DNA of 34,882 nucleotides from Clostridia bacterium (GCA_017505165.1 JAFVPU010000150.1:1-34882); one strand, 5' to 3'. Positions 1,495-33,510 are shown, counted from the stretch's first letter. The notes: generated by a model from the letters alone, not told the origin. A program made the numbers and translations.

Positions 1495-1587
1495 TTAGAG
1501 CAGACACAGAAATCTGATATACATAGTCGACATCATCTGCTGACGAATAATCTGCTCGGTCATGAGAGTCATGGTTACATTGAACAT
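1495..1587 (-). CDS. Small Met-rich peptide (30 aa)
   Basis: GAGGTG RBS overlapping the upstream stop; translation MFNVTMTLMTEQIIRQQMMSTMYIRFLCLL*; fills the gap up to the terminator. Confidence 0.45.
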   Translation of the reverse strand: MFNVTMTLMTEQIIRQQMMSTMYIRFLCLL

Positions 1588-1594
1588 ATGCACC

Positions 1595-2044
1595 TCACAA
1601 CTCTGATAATCCGAATTTGACAGTAAGTCCGTCCAACTCTTTTTCAGTTACAAATTCTGTGTTTTCACGCATCTGAGCAACTTTTTCGGCAGGAACATTA
1701 TGAACATTGCCGAATATACCAGTCATACGAATGATCTGCACAGGATATTTGTACTTCCTACACATATCAAAGTAGGGTTTCCGTTCCCATGCTTTCGTGA
1801 ACGTATTGGAAACAATCACAACACGTCCACAGACGATATCTCGTTCGACATTCGATTGACACCACTCATGAGCGTCCTTCAATCTCGAAGGATCAAAGTT
1901 GTAATCTCCTTCGGTTTCAAAGAACATGTCAGCTTCATAGTGAGTTGTATCAAAACCCGCATATTGCGGGTCTTGAAGAATTTCCTTTGCTTTGGTTGTT
2001 TTACCGCTGCCAGGAACCCCGATAATCATGATCAATTTTTGCAT
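1595..2044 (-). CDS. P-loop kinase (AAA_33 / polynucleotide-kinase-like)
   Basis: Walker A GVPGSGKTT at the N-terminus; EADMFF, SNTFT..WE..Y and GNVHNVP motifs; AAGGAG RBS. Confidence 0.85.
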   Translation of the reverse strand: MQKLIMIIGVPGSGKTTKAKEILQDPQYAGFDTTHYEADMFFETEGDYNFDPSRLKDAHEWCQSNVERDIVCGRVVIVSNTFTKAWERKPYFDMCRKYKYPVQIIRMTGIFGNVHNVPAEKVAQMRENTEFVTEKELDGLTVKFGLSEL

Positions 2045-2092
2045 GATGATTCTCCTTTGTGTTATTTGGGTTAAAACTTATTCTATTTTATA

Positions 2093-2300
2093 CTCTAGGT
2101 ATCAATGTGTTCTTTGACATATTAAGTTGAGTCCTTAATAGACAGGTGACAACACATTGAAATCAAATAAACCTTGCGATTAGGTTCAGTTTGAAAGTTT
2201 TAGTTGTTTTCTTGGTGGAACAAGAACCAATCACTAACTTTCGACAACGAATGAATATACCAGTCATTGTGATCTCCTTTCTATTGATACCTAGAGATCA
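2093..2300 (-). ncRNA. Putative structured leader or ncRNA downstream of an early promoter
   Basis: Perfect 14-bp inverted repeat (2093-2106 / 2283-2296) enclosing internal hairpins at 2102-2160, 2170-2186 and 2193-2242. Confidence 0.5.
2163..2267 (-). CDS. Small basic peptide (34 aa) within the structured leader
   Basis: AAAGGAG RBS; translation MTGIFIRCRKLVIGSCSTKKTTKTFKLNLIARFI*. Confidence 0.4.
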   Translation of the reverse strand: MTGIFIRCRKLVIGSCSTKKTTKTFKLNLIARFI

Positions 2301-2313
2301 TTAATGTAATATA
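2298..2313 (-). promoter_or_regulatory. Early phage promoter TATATTAC-N5-TGA
   Basis: TATATTAC ATTAA TGATCTC; matches the phiKZ early consensus TATATTAC; one of four same-strand copies. Confidence 0.75.
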
Positions 2314-2340
2314 TATTCAAATAAAAATGAACAATAAAAC

Positions 2341-2378
2341 AAGATAGAAGGTGGTGCTTAAGCACCACCTTCTATCTT
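2341..2378. terminator. Perfect 38-bp palindrome, likely terminator of the head-protein operon
   Basis: AAGATAGAAGGTGGTGCTT/AAGCACCACCTTCTATCTT, 17 nt after the stop of 2396..4021. Confidence 0.75.
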
Positions 2379-2395
2379 AAACACAAAATATCAAC

Positions 2396-4021
2396 TTACC
2401 AGAGTCTGGTACCATACACATCACCTAGGAAAGGTTCTGCTTTATTACCAGGCTGTTCTCCTTCAGGAGTTTCAGTCGGTTCGATATGCGGAGCGTTTCC
2501 AGGATGTGGTTCACCGTTAGGATCAACACCTTTTGCAGGGTCATCAAGAGGTTTGTCATTGGGAACATTTTCAGGTGTTTCAACACCATTCTTGGTTTCA
2601 CCAGCGGACGGGTCTCCTTGTTCTGCTTCTTTAGGATCAGTAGCAGGTTCTTCACCACTTGGTTCTGCCTGCTTACCTTTTGGATCTTCTTCAGGTGTAG
2701 CTTCTTTCGGATCTTCGTTAACATATTTGGCATCAAGACCCATTGGATCTTCAGTTGTGATAGCTTCAGGTGCAACGCCTTTATCAGACGCATTTACAAC
2801 AAGCTTTCCAGCCATAGTCAGAACCTGATCCACCAATTCATTTATGGATGCACTATACACAGCAATCACATCACCGAGAAATGCAGCATAACTACGTCCG
2901 GCAGAGATAGTGGATTCACAAAAATCTTTCTGTGAAGAATCCATCTGAATAGTTTCAATGGATTTAGTGACATCATCACGCACTGTACCAAGTTTGTTAT
3001 AAACATAAGCAAACTTAGGAACTGAATAAAGCACGTTCTTAACAGCACCTGCAGCAACAACAATGTTACTCGGAGTCCAACGGAACACTGCCATAGTCTG
3101 CTCCTGAGGAGCATCTGCTGGTTCAACTGGAGTAACAGGAGTTGTAGTAACAACAGGTTGTTTCTCTTCTCCTTCACCTTCTTCAGTTGAAATAACTTCA
3201 GCAGGATCACCAGTAAGCACAGGTTGCGGATTGAGAACTTCTGCAGGCTCAGGAGCAGTCTGTTCTGCTTCTTTAGGAGTCTCAGGGACGATCTGCACAG
3301 AAGGAGTGTCTTCATCTCCTTCAAGCAAACTTTCAGTTCCAGTCTCAACGATCTTGTATCCAAGAACTTTCATATATGGTTCAAGTGTACGAAGTTCTTC
3401 ACTGGAAGTTCCGAGAGAAGCAAAGTTATCGTTGATGTACTGCAGAGCATTAACGCGCTCCATGAACACAGGCTGTGTGTATCCAAAGATGTCATCACTG
3501 TTGAATGAAACAGCATCAATTTTTGCTCCTTCAGAGCTGATACTACTCACAACACGATCAATCATCGCGTTCTGACTGGTAGCCTGATCCTGCAATTTTG
3601 TAAAGAAAGTTCCAGCAGATTCAACAATCTGATCAAAAAACACTTTGACTTTTTCGTATGCATTGACAATAGTTTCATCAATGTTCTCACAGCATGCGAT
3701 TCCAACAGCTTTTGCATTCTCAGCAGTAATAGCAGGAATCTCCATTCCGATAACATCAGAAAGAGTATTACCAGAATTGAAAATGCACATGATAGATTCA
3801 GATGCACCATAAGTTTTGATAACACTCTTTGCATTTTTGAGAGTGCTTAGTGCATTGCAGATCTTGCGATCATTCGTAACAACAGCTGTTACTTTTTTGG
3901 CAGCAATGTCAACAGCAAAACGTGTGTTGATCATGTTGGCCATGTCTACCCAAATCATTTGGGATTTTGGAGACTCCTGATTAGTATCAAAAGCATCCAA
4001 GTGAAGATTAAGTCCACTCAT
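2396..4021 (-). CDS. Putative internal head (ejection) protein with acidic Pro/Glu-rich regions
   Basis: Last gene of the gp89/gp90-like operon. The amphipathic helix E|NIDETIVNAYEKVKVFFDQIV resembles phiKZ-like head protein paralogues (recalled, unverified). Contains low-complexity P/E/T segments. Confidence 0.6.
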   Translation of the reverse strand: MSGLNLHLDAFDTNQESPKSQMIWVDMANMINTRFAVDIAAKKVTAVVTNDRKICNALSTLKNAKSVIKTYGASESIMCIFNSGNTLSDVIGMEIPAITAENAKAVGIACCENIDETIVNAYEKVKVFFDQIVESAGTFFTKLQDQATSQNAMIDRVVSSISSEGAKIDAVSFNSDDIFGYTQPVFMERVNALQYINDNFASLGTSSEELRTLEPYMKVLGYKIVETGTESLLEGDEDTPSVQIVPETPKEAEQTAPEPAEVLNPQPVLTGDPAEVISTEEGEGEEKQPVVTTTPVTPVEPADAPQEQTMAVFRWTPSNIVVAAGAVKNVLYSVPKFAYVYNKLGTVRDDVTKSIETIQMDSSQKDFCESTISAGRSYAAFLGDVIAVYSASINELVDQVLTMAGKLVVNASDKGVAPEAITTEDPMGLDAKYVNEDPKEATPEEDPKGKQAEPSGEEPATDPKEAEQGDPSAGETKNGVETPENVPNDKPLDDPAKGVDPNGEPHPGNAPHIEPTETPEGEQPGNKAEPFLGDVYGTRLW

Positions 4022-4037: not shown

Positions 4038-4955
4038 TTAACCTTTACATGCAGTATTGACGGTATGCAAGAGCGTCATCATCAATCTGAATGTGTCCGT
4101 AATAGGATATGAATCGTTGTCTTCTGGTACCAGATCGATCGTCTCAGGTGTAACACAGATTGCATAAGCAAGAGGTGCACTCTTTCTTGCATTATATTTT
4201 GCAATGCAATCTTTGTATATTGGACACGAAACAATGTCCGGATAAATATATTGATCGAACAAAAGATCGGATGCATATGTCCTTCCGTTGTATGTACCTT
4301 CACACATCCAAAGGATTGACATAAGAACTTTCTGCGCAATTATGATACGGGTATTAAACATCTTTGCATCAAGTTCAGCATCTTTCTTCTGGAAAGGACG
4401 AACGAGCATATCTTTCACAATTTCACAGTACGCACTGAATTGATCTTTTGTTATAGTTTCCTGCACATCAGAGATATCAAATGTGCAAGAATTCCGTTCT
4501 TTGTGTGCTTCAGCAAGAGAACCAAACATGCCAACAAAGTGCGGTGTGTATTCAGATTCTGCCATGCGTTTTACAATTGAAACAAAGTTTAACAAAGCAG
4601 TTTTTGCTGAAGGAGGCAAACAAGGAATAATATTTCCAAGTTTAACTTCTTTCACCCAACGATCATAAACGTTGACAACGATATTCTTCAAAAGACCTTT
4701 CTGATATTCAATGAGCTGGTCTTTGTATTTCTGTGCCAATTCAGTACAATCATTATCATCGTAATCACAAGGAATATCAAATTCTTCACAATAAAGACGA
4801 TACATTGTAGCATCACAGACAAAGCTGATCTTGTCAAGGAATGCGACTGTTGTCCAGTCGCAAACCCAGACATGAGAGTTAACTCTATCTGCTTCAGATT
4901 TGATGATCGCCTGAGCATGCTCAAACGAACTAAATCCCAAGTCTAAACGAGCCAT
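4038..4955 (-). CDS. Hypothetical protein, probably virion head
   Basis: 305 aa, AGGAGG RBS, operon context, N-terminal SSFE possible maturation site. Confidence 0.6.
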   Translation of the reverse strand: MARLDLGFSSFEHAQAIIKSEADRVNSHVWVCDWTTVAFLDKISFVCDATMYRLYCEEFDIPCDYDDNDCTELAQKYKDQLIEYQKGLLKNIVVNVYDRWVKEVKLGNIIPCLPPSAKTALLNFVSIVKRMAESEYTPHFVGMFGSLAEAHKERNSCTFDISDVQETITKDQFSAYCEIVKDMLVRPFQKKDAELDAKMFNTRIIIAQKVLMSILWMCEGTYNGRTYASDLLFDQYIYPDIVSCPIYKDCIAKYNARKSAPLAYAICVTPETIDLVPEDNDSYPITDTFRLMMTLLHTVNTACKG

Positions 4956-15089: not shown

Positions 15090-15105
15090 TCACAGTTGTA
15101 ATATA
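15090..15105 (-). promoter_or_regulatory. Early phage promoter TATATTAC-N5-TGA
   Basis: TATATTAC AACTG TGATCTT. Confidence 0.75.
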
Positions 15106-15142
15106 TACGTATAAAAACTTGAACTGCACTTATAACAATATG

Positions 15143-16149: not shown

Positions 16150-16248
16150 GTGATCTCTGATTAATCTAAACAAAGTTGCTTCAGCCTACTCTGTGATGCG
16201 CGAACATCACAGAGTAGGCTTATTTTGTTACTTAGATTCAGAGATCAC
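16150..16248 (-). promoter_or_regulatory. 99-nt rod-like hairpin 5' leader
   Basis: Nested inverted repeats 16150-16160/16238-16248, 16163-16169/16232-16238, 16170-16174/16224-16228 and 16183-16198/16205-16220. Confidence 0.7.
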
Positions 16249-16260
16249 GCAAGTAATATA
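16245..16260 (-). promoter_or_regulatory. Early phage promoter TATATTAC-N5-TGA
   Basis: TATATTAC TTGCG TGATCTC. Confidence 0.75.
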
Positions 16261-16278
16261 TAGACGTTTTATTTTGAA

Positions 16279-19828: not shown

Positions 19829-19848
19829 TTGAAAAAAGAAATTAATAC

Positions 19849-19883
19849 ACGTATACAAGAGGACTAAGTCCTCTTGTATACGT
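19849..19883. terminator. Bidirectional hairpin between convergent genes
   Basis: 17-bp inverted repeat ACGTATACAAGAGGACT/AGTCCTCTTGTATACGT. Confidence 0.8.
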
Positions 19884-19907
19884 ATAATTTATTGTTTGTG
19901 CTGTGTG

Positions 19908-21569: not shown

Positions 21570-21585
21570 TCACTTATGTAATATA
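21570..21585 (-). promoter_or_regulatory. Early phage promoter TATATTAC-N5-TGA
   Basis: TATATTAC ATAAG TGAATAT, about 28 nt before the DHH start. Confidence 0.75.
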
Positions 21586-21652
21586 TTGTTACCTTTCTTA
21601 TGAATCTAAATATATTCATATTTAATCACTATATTTGTGCGTAATTGCTGAA

Positions 21653-29353: not shown

Positions 29354-29389
29354 AAGTAGTAAGTGTTGTTATAACAACACTTACTACTT
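29354..29389. terminator. Perfect 36-bp palindrome
   Basis: AAGTAGTAAGTGTTGTTA/TAACAACACTTACTACTT. Confidence 0.65.
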
Positions 29390-30142: not shown

Positions 30143-30898
30143 ATGTCAGCAACAACCATTATTAACCAATCATCTCCTCATATGTTCTTTGTTACACCCG
30201 AAGGTATAACAGTCATGGGTAGAACCCGTGTATATGAAACATATGACAGAATGTTAGAGGATCCGAATCCTCCAAAATTCGCATGGGTGATCGATGCTAC
30301 AGGAGATACTACTGTTTCTGAAGGTGCTGCTTTCTATGCTTACAAAGATGGTAGATGGCGTAAACTGTATGAATCAGAAGCAATGGACAATGAGAATTTA
30401 AACAAACCAGATGGTTATGATGAACTCGTTGATACAGTATCTCTTCTTAAAGCAACAGTTATTACACTACAATCATCAAAACTTGACAAAGTTCCAGGTA
30501 AGGGACTTTCAACAAACGACTTCTCTGATACATACAAACAATGGATTGATTCATTTGAGCATTATGACGACACACAGATAAAAGATATGATTCTATCTGA
30601 AGTGACAAATCGAACTAATGCTCTTTTGAATAAAGTTGATAAAGAAGTAGGAAAGGGATTATCATCCAACGACTTCACTGATCAAGATAAAGAAAAACTT
30701 GATTCTATTGAACCCTACGATGATACCCAGATAAAAGAACTTATAGATCGAAAAGAGCAATCTCTAAAACAGAGTATTGCAACTAAAGCATCTACAGCTG
30801 ATCTTCTTGCATTTAAAAACAGACTAGGTGCTGTCGAACAAGAAGTTCTTGGCGCATCAGAAACTCTATCTGCTATCGAGGAGCTAGTAGGACAATGA
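30143..30898 (+). CDS. Short fibre-like protein sharing the N-terminal module of the long fibre
   Basis: N-terminal ~80 aa similar to 21727..26790; two repeats with a 51-aa period (K.DK..GKGLS.NDF.D...YDDTQIK). Confidence 0.75.
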   Translation: MSATTIINQSSPHMFFVTPEGITVMGRTRVYETYDRMLEDPNPPKFAWVIDATGDTTVSEGAAFYAYKDGRWRKLYESEAMDNENLNKPDGYDELVDTVSLLKATVITLQSSKLDKVPGKGLSTNDFSDTYKQWIDSFEHYDDTQIKDMILSEVTNRTNALLNKVDKEVGKGLSSNDFTDQDKEKLDSIEPYDDTQIKELIDRKEQSLKQSIATKASTADLLAFKNRLGAVEQEVLGASETLSAIEELVGQ

Positions 30899-33472: not shown

Positions 33473-33510
33473 AAGTAGATAGAGTCGTGTTTACACGACT
33501 CTATCTACTT
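33473..33510. terminator. Bidirectional hairpin between convergent genes
   Basis: 18-bp inverted repeat AAGTAGATAGAGTCGTGT/ACACGACTCTATCTACTT. Confidence 0.8.

What the first reader, a model, noticed from the sequence alone, without database searches (positions are those of the whole stretch)
2093..2300. Switch-like ~205-nt early RNA with mutually exclusive folds and an embedded small ORF
Seen: it begins right at an early promoter. The 5' segment (TGATCTCTAGGTATCAAT) can pair locally with GAGATCA (2270-2276), occluding the AGGAG RBS of a 34-codon ORF. Alternatively it can form a perfect 14-bp long-range helix with 2093-2106, freeing that RBS. The distal arm also overlaps a competing 10-bp stem (2102-2111/2151-2160), and two more hairpins lie inside. 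Known: 5'-3' long-range pairing around a small ORF is the design of type I toxin mRNAs such as hok, and competing stems typify attenuators. Inference: an undescribed phage riboregulator or ncRNA timing expression of the peptide and/or the downstream P-loop kinase.
Basis: partly seen in the sequence, partly recalled or inferred. Interest (0 to 1): 0.75.

Follow-up and report, generated by a model that had tools for sequence, protein, structure and literature searches.

The report
Clamped early leader with mini-gene
In an uncultured giant gut phage, an early transcript starts with a tiny but real protein gene whose two flanks pair to close a roughly 205-base RNA loop; this design recurs in related phages, but there is no good evidence that it acts as a switch.

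Summary
All features lie on the minus strand. In order: a terminator (2379..2340), a phiKZ-type early promoter (TATATATTAC, 2315..2306), a 5' arm (2296..2283), AGGAG, a 34-codon ORF (2267..2163), a 3' arm (2106..2093), then an AAA_33 kinase gene.

- **Helix:** the perfect 14-bp long-range helix is real and beyond chance. It recurs in 2 other cassettes, one in the same bin and one in a metagenome contig. Against the third copy, 5 of 17 pairs changed on both sides. Predicted pairing probability is about 1 in all three.
- **ORF:** it is a real gene, not a by-product of the fold. It encodes a 33-34 aa basic protein with 3 paralogs in the bin and further homologs elsewhere. Third-codon-position changes dominate. 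It has no membrane segment, so it is not hok-like.
- **Switch:** not supported. The RBS-occluding local hairpin exists here. A second copy has only a non-homologous, weaker one, and the third has none. No terminator follows, so it is not an attenuator. Rfam gives nothing.

Best reading: a modular early-leader cassette whose 5' end is clamped to a site just past the mini-gene. This most resembles the 14-bp 5'/3'-UTR interaction of B. subtilis hbs mRNA, so the likely role is nuclease protection or processing. The function is inferred; no RNA data were available.

The parts
2340..2379 (-). Intrinsic terminator of the upstream 541-aa gene (19-bp perfect palindrome followed by a T-rich tail)
   Evidence: I7
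2306..2332 (-). Early promoter: GTTCA (2332..2328) followed by TATATATTAC (2315..2306). The inferred transcription start is about 2299/2298, at the conserved TG(A).
   Evidence: The motif has 3 exact copies in the window, all upstream of minus-strand genes. The bin holds 34 exact copies, 18 of them followed by N5-TG with enough downstream sequence to test. Table 2 of PMC7058600 lists TATATTAC for phiKZ and ...TATATTACDWHDGTG for 201phi2-1. PMC11512511 places the AT-rich motif about 10 bp upstream of the TSS. The TSS here is inferred, not measured.
2283..2296 (-). 5' arm of the long-range helix (CTCTAGGTATCAAT), beginning 3-4 nt after the inferred start
2270..2300 (-). Local hairpin possible in nascent RNA: (U)GAUCUCU pairs with AGGAGAUC(A), covering the Shine-Dalgarno AGGAG (2278..2274)
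   Evidence: -8.2 kcal/mol in the first 45 nt. It is not conserved in the other copies. In runs X4 and X5 the contigs carry 2271 G>T, which removes one terminal pair with no compensating change.
2163..2267 (-). Small gene: 34 aa, MTGIFIRCRKLVIGSCSTKKTTKTFKLNLIARFI, plus stop. Basic, with 8 K+R and 0 D+E.
2102..2160 (-). 3' domain hairpin (10-bp stem 2160..2151 / 2111..2102) carrying AAGGACTCAAC (2136..2126). CTCAAC is invariant in the 3 full cassettes.
   Evidence: No consistent hairpin around CTCAAC was predicted in the three copies.
2093..2106 (-). 3' arm of the long-range helix (ATTGATACCTAGAG), 56 nt after the stop codon and 48 nt before the start of the next gene
1595..2044 (-). Downstream gene read from the same promoter: 149-aa P-loop kinase (AAA_33; PHROG ATPase / polynucleotide-kinase-like), with its own AAAGGAG
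   Evidence: No terminator-like site lies between 2093 and 2045.

Best explanation
This is a modular leader cassette of early transcripts in an uncultured gut phiKZ-like (Chimalliviridae-type) giant phage.

Transcription starts about 6-8 nt after TATATATTAC. Nucleotides +3/+4 to +17 of the RNA pair with a 14-nt segment about 190 nt downstream. This closes a roughly 205-nt domain that holds a strong ribosome-binding site and a real 34-codon gene for a small basic protein. The transcript then runs on into the next gene.

The helix most likely acts as a clamp that hides the 5' end and the leader from host ribonucleases and sets a structural boundary for the mini-gene. This is the principle shown for the 14-bp 5'/3'-UTR interaction of B. 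subtilis hbs mRNA.

**Shown here:** the helix, its conservation and covariation, the coding nature of the ORF, and the modular spread of the cassette.
**Inferred:** the start site, that the RNA rather than the DNA is the active form, and the protective role.
For: **1. Helix in all three full cassettes.**
- Window: 14 of 14 pairs. C51: G.U, then 8 pairs, a mismatch, then 5 pairs. L014a: 10 pairs, a mismatch, then 5 pairs.
- Pair probabilities are 0.87-1.0.
- Fold z-scores are -4.83, -6.24 and -5.05.

**2. Covariation.**
- 17 pairs across 3 sequences: 88% of cells are paired, against 26-40% when the partner strand is slid by 1-3 columns.
- 5 pairs changed on both sides.
- 3 of 500 shuffles reach the observed values.

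**3. Chance.** 0 of 3000 random segments give a perfect run of 14 or more; 3 of 3000 give 13 or more pairs with one mismatch.

**4. Position.** The helix always begins 1-4 nt after the conserved promoter-proximal TG. A second early leader in this window (16247..16150) pairs from the same TGATCTCT start (z -9.79). This ties the pairing to the transcript's 5' end.

**5. The ORF is a gene.**
- 3 paralogs in the bin, 2 complete copies in L014 plus a 5'-cut copy in L015, and further database proteins P0002, P0008, P0009 and P0010, with P0005 the same protein as the L014a copy.
- Length is 33-34 aa in the window, C51, C218, both L014 copies, P0009 and P0010. P0002 and P0008 are called with a 14-aa N-terminal extension (47 aa).
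- pN/pS is 0.25-0.64 in 15 of 15 pairs, and third-position changes are the most frequent in 13 of those 15 pairs.

**6. Known precedent.** The abstract of PMC5737220 describes a 14-bp long-range 5'/3'-UTR interaction in B. subtilis hbs mRNA that modulates RNase Y cleavage.

**7. Modularity.**
- The same cassette sits after a DNA polymerase gene in C51 and after a different gene here.
- It is present in L014 but absent at the syntenic promoter in C218.
Against: - No RNA data. No listed run is on record as RNA, so the start site, the strand and any processing are all unmeasured.
- Only 3 full cassettes from 2 sequence types, so the covariation rests on essentially one divergence.
- The window and C51 arms are nearly identical while their ORFs share only 45% aa identity. 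This fits sequence-specific recognition or gene conversion as well as pairing.
- The C51 mismatch is A.C in the sense RNA and would be G.U in the antisense RNA.
- Inverted repeats are symmetric, and the plus strand also folds well (z -3.61).
- Only 3 of the 18 early promoters tested in the bin have such a closing helix, so it is not a general need of early transcripts.
- The two helix-less copies of the gene (C218, L014b) show the protein can be expressed without the helix.
- Contigs from runs X4 and X5 carry 2227 C>T. By my reading of the codons this is Gly14Asp, at a glycine invariant in the 9 aligned proteins. This window's copy may therefore be under relaxed constraint.
- The host and its RNases are unknown.
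Confidence: 0.5

Rival explanations
1. Processing stem. The closed helix is a double-strand-specific nuclease (RNase III-type) site. Cleavage would release a roughly 200-nt mini-mRNA with paired ends and a separate downstream mRNA, as with the processing stems that flank rRNAs and the RNase III sites of T7 and SP82 early RNAs (recalled, not checked here).
For: The same helix evidence applies. The helix sits exactly between the mini-gene and the next gene's ribosome-binding site. The arms keep their sequence better than the interior between window and C51, which suits a recognised site. The second leader at 16247..16150 is an even longer duplex.
Against: 14-15 bp with a mismatch in 2 of 3 copies is short for RNase III substrates (established knowledge, recalled). 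No ends could be mapped, because no RNA run is listed.
Confidence: 0.2
2. In nascent RNA the 5' end folds onto the Shine-Dalgarno sequence and blocks the mini-gene. Once the 3' arm is made, the long helix takes the 5' segment and frees the ribosome-binding site, timing peptide synthesis.
For: In folds of the first 45-150 nt the hairpin (U)GAUCUCU/AGGAGAUC(A) is the MFE, with SD pairing about 0.67. It shares 2294-2296 with the long helix. C51 also has a small 5'-arm/SD-side hairpin, GGUAUC/GAUAUC.
Against: - The C51 hairpin uses other nucleotides and is weak (-4.1 kcal/mol). L014a has none.
- In the full-length folds SD pairing is 0.49 (window), 0.05 (C51) and 0.68 (L014a), so the long helix does not consistently free the SD.
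- Much of the window's 5' partner (TGATCTCT, or TGATCT-) recurs after the two other early promoters of this window, so it may be promoter-proximal sequence rather than a dedicated sensor.
- A natural variant, 2271 G>T, loses a pair without compensation.
Confidence: 0.12
3. DNA-level element. [quoted passage not shown] The RNA helix would be a by-product.
For: - Copies sit in unrelated gene contexts.
- The cassette is present in L014 but missing at the syntenic promoter of C218. By my reading of that alignment, the gap ends lie within about 9 nt of the outer arm ends.
- A relative in run X6 (34 differences over its 242 aligned letters, across the kinase gene and its leader) joins a C51-like interior to the same 3' arm upstream of the kinase gene.
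- L015 holds a copy cut at its 5' end.
- The PeSL precedent comes from the abstract of PMC2839356.
Against: - No target-site duplication is visible at the flanks (direct reading).
- No transposase or recombinase is associated.
- 5 pairs changed on both arms in L014a, which needs selection for complementarity or matched sites.
- The 5' arm always sits right at the transcript start.
- No strand-changing joints appear in the laid contigs, although contigs drop rare forms.
- This rival can coexist with an RNA role.
Confidence: 0.13
4. A hok-like type I toxin-antitoxin mRNA, locked by 5'-3' fold-back pairing and controlled by an antisense RNA.
For: 5'-3' pairing around a small ORF.
Against: - The peptide has 7-8 K/R and no acidic residue. 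Its maximum 15-residue Kyte-Doolittle mean is 1.07 or less, so there is no membrane helix.
- 3 paralogs are driven by or placed behind early promoters.
- The 3' arm is internal, not at an mRNA 3' end, and no terminator follows.
- There is no plus-strand phage promoter motif in 2093-2300. The only plus-strand sigma-70-like site (2284-2312) points away.
- No Rfam family matched.
Confidence: 0.03

Closest known systems
B. subtilis hbs mRNA 5'/3'-UTR interaction (Braun, Durand, Condon 2017, PMC5737220; abstract read)
   Same: A 14-bp long-range pairing between the leader and a segment after the ORF of a small basic protein, next to a strong Shine-Dalgarno sequence. In hbs it modulates RNase Y cleavage in the leader.
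   Different: Here the 3' partner is not in a terminal 3' UTR; transcription runs on into another gene. The 5' arm starts only 3-4 nt from the inferred 5' end. The system is a phage early cassette present in several copies. No nuclease data exist.
hok/sok-type mRNA fold-back (fbi/tac) pairing of type I toxin mRNAs (recalled from the literature, no paper read here)
   Same: The 5' end of the mRNA pairs with a distant downstream segment around a small ORF.
   Different: There is no hydrophobic toxin, no antisense RNA gene and no overlapping leader ORF was seen. The pairing partner is internal rather than at the 3' end. There are multiple paralogs under phage early promoters.
PeSL (promoter-early stem-loop) cassettes of T4-type phages (Arbiol et al. 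2010, PMC2839356, abstract read; PMC4122927, listing only)
   Same: A terminator hairpin followed at once by a strong early promoter flanks small genes of unknown function. Cassettes differ between close relatives by insertion, deletion and replacement.
   Different: PeSLs are sigma-70-type promoters plus a local stem-loop. Here the promoter is the phiKZ-type TATATTAC motif, and the special feature is a long-range helix spanning the gene.
5'UTR-derived small RNAs of giant phages 201phi2-1 and phiKZ (Poppeliers et al. 2024, PMC11512511; passages and section 13 read)
   Same: Structured RNA segments directly after promoters of Chimalliviridae transcripts.
   Different: Those arise by premature termination and are described as non-coding. 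This segment has no terminator and encodes a conserved protein. No sequence relation was found.

Membership tests
Chimalliviridae (phiKZ-like) early promoter | AT-rich TATATTAC core about 10 bp upstream of the start, often followed by ..GTG | tested here: met
   TATATATTAC lies at 2315..2306 and is followed by ATTAATG. The bin-wide consensus is GTTCA-N13/14-TATATATTAC-N4-RTG. Published motifs come from Table 2 of PMC7058600 and section 13 of PMC11512511. Promoter activity itself was not tested.
hok/sok-like type I toxin-antitoxin | Small hydrophobic membrane-active toxin peptide | tested here: not met
   8 K+R, 0 D+E, and a maximum 15-residue hydropathy of 0.94 in this copy; at most 1.07 in the six DNA-encoded copies analysed
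hok/sok-like type I toxin-antitoxin | Antisense RNA gene overlapping the toxin leader | tested here: inconclusive
   No plus-strand phage promoter motif lies in 2093-2300. The only plus-strand sigma-70-like match (2284-2312) reads away from the ORF. No RNA data are available.
hok/sok-like type I toxin-antitoxin | Fold-back pairing between the 5' end and the very 3' end of a terminated mRNA | tested here: not met
   The 3' arm is followed by 48 nt and the next gene, with no terminator-like site.
Leader-peptide transcription attenuator | Alternative stems that include an intrinsic terminator before the regulated gene, plus regulatory codon runs in the leader peptide | tested here: not met
   No terminator-like site lies between 2300 and 2045. 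The peptide is conserved as a protein, with no run of one codon.
Any Rfam family (riboswitches, known phage RNAs, toxin mRNAs) | Score at or above the family gathering threshold | tested here: not met
   0 matches at gathering score in the window and 4 loci. Only sub-threshold noise appears in 1500-3000.
hbs-type 5'/3' long-range mRNA clamp | Conserved long-range pairing between the leader and a segment after a short ORF | tested here: met
hbs-type 5'/3' long-range mRNA clamp | The pairing changes nuclease cleavage or mRNA stability | not testable with these tools
   No RNA runs are listed. This needs half-life and end-mapping experiments.
PeSL-like shuffling cassette | Terminator stem-loop plus early promoter at cassette borders, with insertion, deletion or replacement between relatives at those borders | tested here: inconclusive
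   A terminator plus promoter lies directly upstream. There is one cassette indel and one interior swap. Mini-circles and recombination itself are not testable here.
Invertible DNA segment (inverton) | Both orientations of the segment between the repeats exist in the population | tested here: inconclusive
   No strand-changing joint appears in contigs of 4 runs. Contigs drop rare variants.

The most novel reading that the evidence does not exclude
A previously undescribed family of self-clamping mini-gene cassettes in gut Chimalliviridae-type phages. Each cassette has a 5' arm at the early-transcript start, a gene for a 33-aa basic peptide, and a 3' arm. The cassettes move or are swapped between early promoters. 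The arm pair would serve twice: as an RNA clamp or processing stem, and as the DNA boundary for cassette gain, loss and exchange. The multi-copy peptide would be an early host-takeover or RNA-binding factor.
Probability: 0.2. Interest if true: 0.7.

Novelty: new variant of a known kind. Interest (0 to 1): 0.45.

Why it matters
Very little is known about post-transcriptional control in nucleus-forming giant phages, and nothing for their uncultured gut relatives. A conserved clamp that ties the first nucleotides of an early transcript to a site just past a mini-gene would have two uses. It would be a compact, transplantable RNA-stability or processing module. It would also flag a multi-copy 33-aa early protein family that gene callers and family libraries miss. 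The finding shows as well that the 'embedded small ORF' is the conserved core of the element, which redirects any experiment from riboswitch-style assays to peptide function and mRNA decay.

Tried and rejected
**DNA and RNA searches with no useful result**
- blastn of 1500-3000 against phage records: no match.
- Rfam: only sub-threshold noise at E up to 10, and 0 hits at gathering score on the window plus 4 loci.
- Exact 22-nt arm+RBS pattern in IMG/VR: 0.

**Protein-pattern and protein searches**
- IMG/VR protein-pattern scans: 0 relatives among 251 matched stretches and 0 among 281.
- GTDB genome contigs: 0 relatives among 172 stretches.
- tblastn of P0010 against phage records: only 5 Gordonia phage records, at E = 6.
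- 60 relatives of the bin's host genus and order: no copy. One hit at E 0.004 lies inside a 383-aa frame and is taken as noise.
- PHROGs, Pfam and the protein atlas for the peptide: nothing.
- AlphaFold2 of the peptide with 9 sequences: mean pLDDT 55.4, not usable, so no fold search was run.

**Calls that could not be made**
- The listing of cluster members.
- The records behind L014 and L015, which are not held.
- As a result, the contigs encoding P0009 and P0010 (longest 252,869 bases) could not be read. They are the obvious source of more cassettes.

**Expression.** No RNA holder is listed among the 24 sequencing runs returned.

**Ideas tested and dropped**
- A conserved hairpin presenting CTCAAC in the 3' domain was not consistently predicted.
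- Retron ncRNA: no reverse transcriptase nearby, and the interior is coding.
- 5'-closing helices as a general feature of early transcripts: only 3 of 18 promoters.

**Literature.** One search, for jumbo phage / small open reading frame / inverted repeat / early promoter / long-range, found no description of such a cassette among the 10 papers listed of 21. That single search is the only basis for calling it undescribed. Supplementary tables of the papers cited were not opened.

Full report
**Where the window comes from.** The window is contig C144 of a 1.53-Mb, 230-contig bin. Sixty relatives of the bin's host lineage were searched; the same-genus genomes are about 0.7-1.2 Mb and carry none of the features below. 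Earlier notes of this scan call the bin a gut Clostridia genome mixed with contigs of an uncultured phiKZ-like giant phage. I confirmed the phage part only partly. A virion protein of the window finds Chimalliviridae-type jumbo phages at 32% identity or less. PHROGs and Pfam hits include phiKZ-type families. No DNA-level relative exists among deposited phage records.

**Anatomy.** All genes around the finding are on the minus strand. Reading 5' to 3' on that strand:
- a 541-aa gene ends at 2396;
- a perfect 19-bp terminator hairpin lies at 2379..2340;
- GTTCA (2332..2328) and TATATATTAC (2315..2306) follow;
- then TGAT, and the 5' arm CTCTAGGTATCAAT (2296..2283);
- AAAGGAG (2280..2274);
- a 34-codon ORF (2267..2163);
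- a hairpin domain carrying AAGGACTCAAC;
- the 3' arm ATTGATACCTAGAG (2106..2093);
- 48 nt later, the start of a 149-aa AAA_33 P-loop kinase gene (2044..1595).

No terminator-like site lies between the 3' arm and that gene.

**Promoter.**
- TATATATTAC occurs exactly 3 times in the window, each upstream of a minus-strand gene, and 34 times in the bin.
- Many of these share GTTCA 13-14 nt upstream and R-TG 4 nt downstream.
- Table 2 of PMC7058600 gives TATATTAC as the phiKZ promoter and ...TATATTACDWHDGTG for 201phi2-1.
- PMC11512511 places the AT-rich early motif about 10 bp before the start site.
- In contig C191 the same promoter is followed, right after the TG, by what I read as the 5' end of a tRNA (not checked with a tRNA finder).
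- I therefore place the start at about 2299/2298. This is an inference; no RNA run was available.

**Checking the observation.**
- The 208-nt RNA folds at -58.4 kcal/mol, z -4.83. The opposite strand gives z -3.61, as expected for inverted repeats.
- A perfect 14-bp match between a 22-nt segment and DNA 150-260 nt downstream was seen in 0 of 3000 random draws from the phage contigs.

**Related copies.**
- A search of the bin found a second full cassette on contig C51. It has a terminator, the same promoter, an identical 5' arm plus RBS, a 33-codon ORF, AAGGACTCAAC, and a 3' arm with one change.
- That copy sits between a divergent family B DNA polymerase gene and an unrelated 217-aa gene.
- A third ORF copy lies on C218 without these arms.
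- A profile of the three peptides searched against 1.84 billion representatives gave 7 hits at E up to 0.001. Three are true small homologs: P0001 (the C51 protein itself), P0002 and P0005. The rest are repetitive stretches of longer proteins.
- A further search added P0008, P0009 and P0010. P0010 is seen on 16 contigs, the longest 252,869 bases.
- A metagenome scan returned two loci. L014 holds two tandem copies. L014a has the promoter, arms and ORF. L014b is syntenic with the C218 copy, has no long helix and has its own terminator. L015 holds a copy lacking its 5' part and its ATG.

**The ORF is a gene.**
- Nine distinct protein sequences align without internal gaps apart from one extra residue here. 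M1, T2, G3, I4, K10, G14, K23 and L29 are invariant.
- In all 15 pairwise comparisons of the six DNA copies pN/pS is 0.25-0.64, with synonymous sites near saturation. Third positions change most in 13 of the 15.
- The peptide has 7-8 Lys/Arg, no Asp/Glu and no segment hydrophobic enough for a membrane helix.
- It matches no Pfam, PHROG or atlas family. AlphaFold gave an unusable model, pLDDT 55.
- Against strict constraint on this copy: contigs of runs X4 and X5 carry 2227 C>T. By my reading of the codons this turns the invariant Gly14 into Asp.

**The long helix is conserved and covaries.**
- In all three full cassettes the first nucleotides after the promoter's TG pair with a segment about 190 nt downstream, with probabilities of 0.87-1.0. 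Fold z-scores are -4.83, -6.24 and -5.05.
- L014a uses different arms (TACTCTGTGAGTTGA / TCAACACACAGAGTA).
- In the 17-pair helix, 88% of cells are paired, against 26-40% for slid controls. Five pairs changed on both sides, and 3 of 500 shuffles reach the observed values. RNAalifold recovers the same helix.
- Caveats: only three sequences and two arm types. The window and C51 arms are nearly identical although their proteins are only 45% identical. The C51 mismatch is A.C in the sense RNA.

**The switch is not supported.**
- C51 forms a different, weaker hairpin (-4.1 kcal/mol), and L014a forms none.
- With the long helix in place, the SD pairing probability is 0.49, 0.05 and 0.68 in the three copies, so the helix does not consistently expose the site.
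- The 5' partner TGATCTCT (or TGATCT-) also follows the two other early promoters of this window.
- The 10-bp stem that overlaps the 3' arm simply shortens and lies directly beside the long helix in the MFE.

**Modularity.**
- L014 and C218 are syntenic, with the same upstream gene end, terminator and promoter, and the same downstream hairpin and second ORF copy. Only L014 has the arm-flanked cassette. By my reading of the alignment, the gap ends lie within about 9 nt of the outer arm ends.
- In run X6, a contig piece differing at 34 positions over its 242 aligned letters (kinase gene and leader) continues past the 3' arm into an interior that I read as the C51 type.
- In run X5, a 10.9-kb contig matches both arms with 150 other letters between them, which is the C51-type copy.
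- No strand-changing joint was seen.
- This resembles the shuffling of promoter/stem-loop cassettes in T4-type phages (abstract of PMC2839356).

**A second clamped leader.** After the early promoter at 16262..16253 (minus strand), the RNA 16247..16150 pairs its first 20 nt (again starting UGAUCUCU) with a segment about 75 nt downstream, around a 17-bp hairpin (z -9.79). Among 18 promoters tested in the bin, only this leader and the two cassettes have 11 or more closing pairs.

**Mechanism.** The position of the helix, from +1 to +4 of the inferred transcript to just past the mini-gene, is the key clue.
- The best-documented analogue I found is the 14-bp 5'/3'-UTR interaction of B. subtilis hbs mRNA, which modulates RNase Y cleavage of the leader (abstract of PMC5737220).
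- I therefore favour a nuclease-protection clamp (0.5).
- The main alternative RNA role is a double-strand nuclease processing stem (0.2).
- A DNA-level role of the arms in cassette exchange (0.13) may coexist with either.
- The kinetic switch (0.12) and a hok-like toxin system (0.03) are less likely.

**Novelty.** No Rfam family matches. One literature search found no description of such a cassette. It is best filed as a new variant of a known principle, long-range 5'/3' mRNA pairing, combined with an unannotated small-protein family.

Noticed in passing
window 16150-16262 (minus strand): A second early promoter (TATATATTAC at 16262..16253) is followed by a leader whose first 20 nt (UGAUCUCUGAAUCUAAGUAA) pair with a segment about 75 nt downstream, around a perfect 17-bp hairpin. 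MFE -49.5 kcal/mol, z -9.79. It contains no ORF.
   Followed up: partly
bin-wide; e.g. window 15098-15107, 16253-16262, 21578-21587 (minus strand): The phage-specific early promoter consensus is GTTCA-N13/14-TATATATTAC-N4-R-TG. The bin holds 34 exact core copies. In contig C191 (core at 4426, minus strand) it is followed almost directly by what looks like a tRNA 5' end; this was not checked with a tRNA finder.
   Followed up: partly
L014 2076-2602 and G000 C218 23132-23402: Tandem pair of mini-gene copies in a metagenome relative. The first has arms. The second sits behind a 16-bp hairpin with no U-run and has its own terminator. The bin's syntenic locus keeps only the second copy.
   Followed up: yes
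L015 154-264: A copy of the mini-gene whose first codons read CCG TCT instead of ATG ACT, with an in-frame TGA three codons upstream and unrelated sequence before it. It is probably a 5'-truncated or decaying copy at the start of a 6.3-kb contig.
   Followed up: partly
window 2227 and 2271 (variants in runs X4 and X5): Natural variants: 2227 C>T, which I read as Gly14Asp at an invariant glycine of the peptide, and 2271 G>T, in the SD-to-start spacer. Neither arm changes in those contigs.
   Followed up: partly
whole bin G000: The bin is 1.53 Mb, against about 0.7-1.2 Mb for 36 same-genus genomes. The excess probably consists of giant-phage contigs binned with a small gut Clostridia genome.
   Followed up: no
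window 30479-30738: A direct repeat of 107 nt (72% identity, spacing 153) lies inside the 251-aa ORF at 30143..30898.
   Followed up: no
window 19835-19897, 29354-29389, 33473-33510: Further long perfect or near-perfect palindromes between genes, probably bidirectional terminators. Several terminator stems in the phage share similar words, such as CACAGAGT/ACTCTGTG, which also make up the L014a arms.
   Followed up: no
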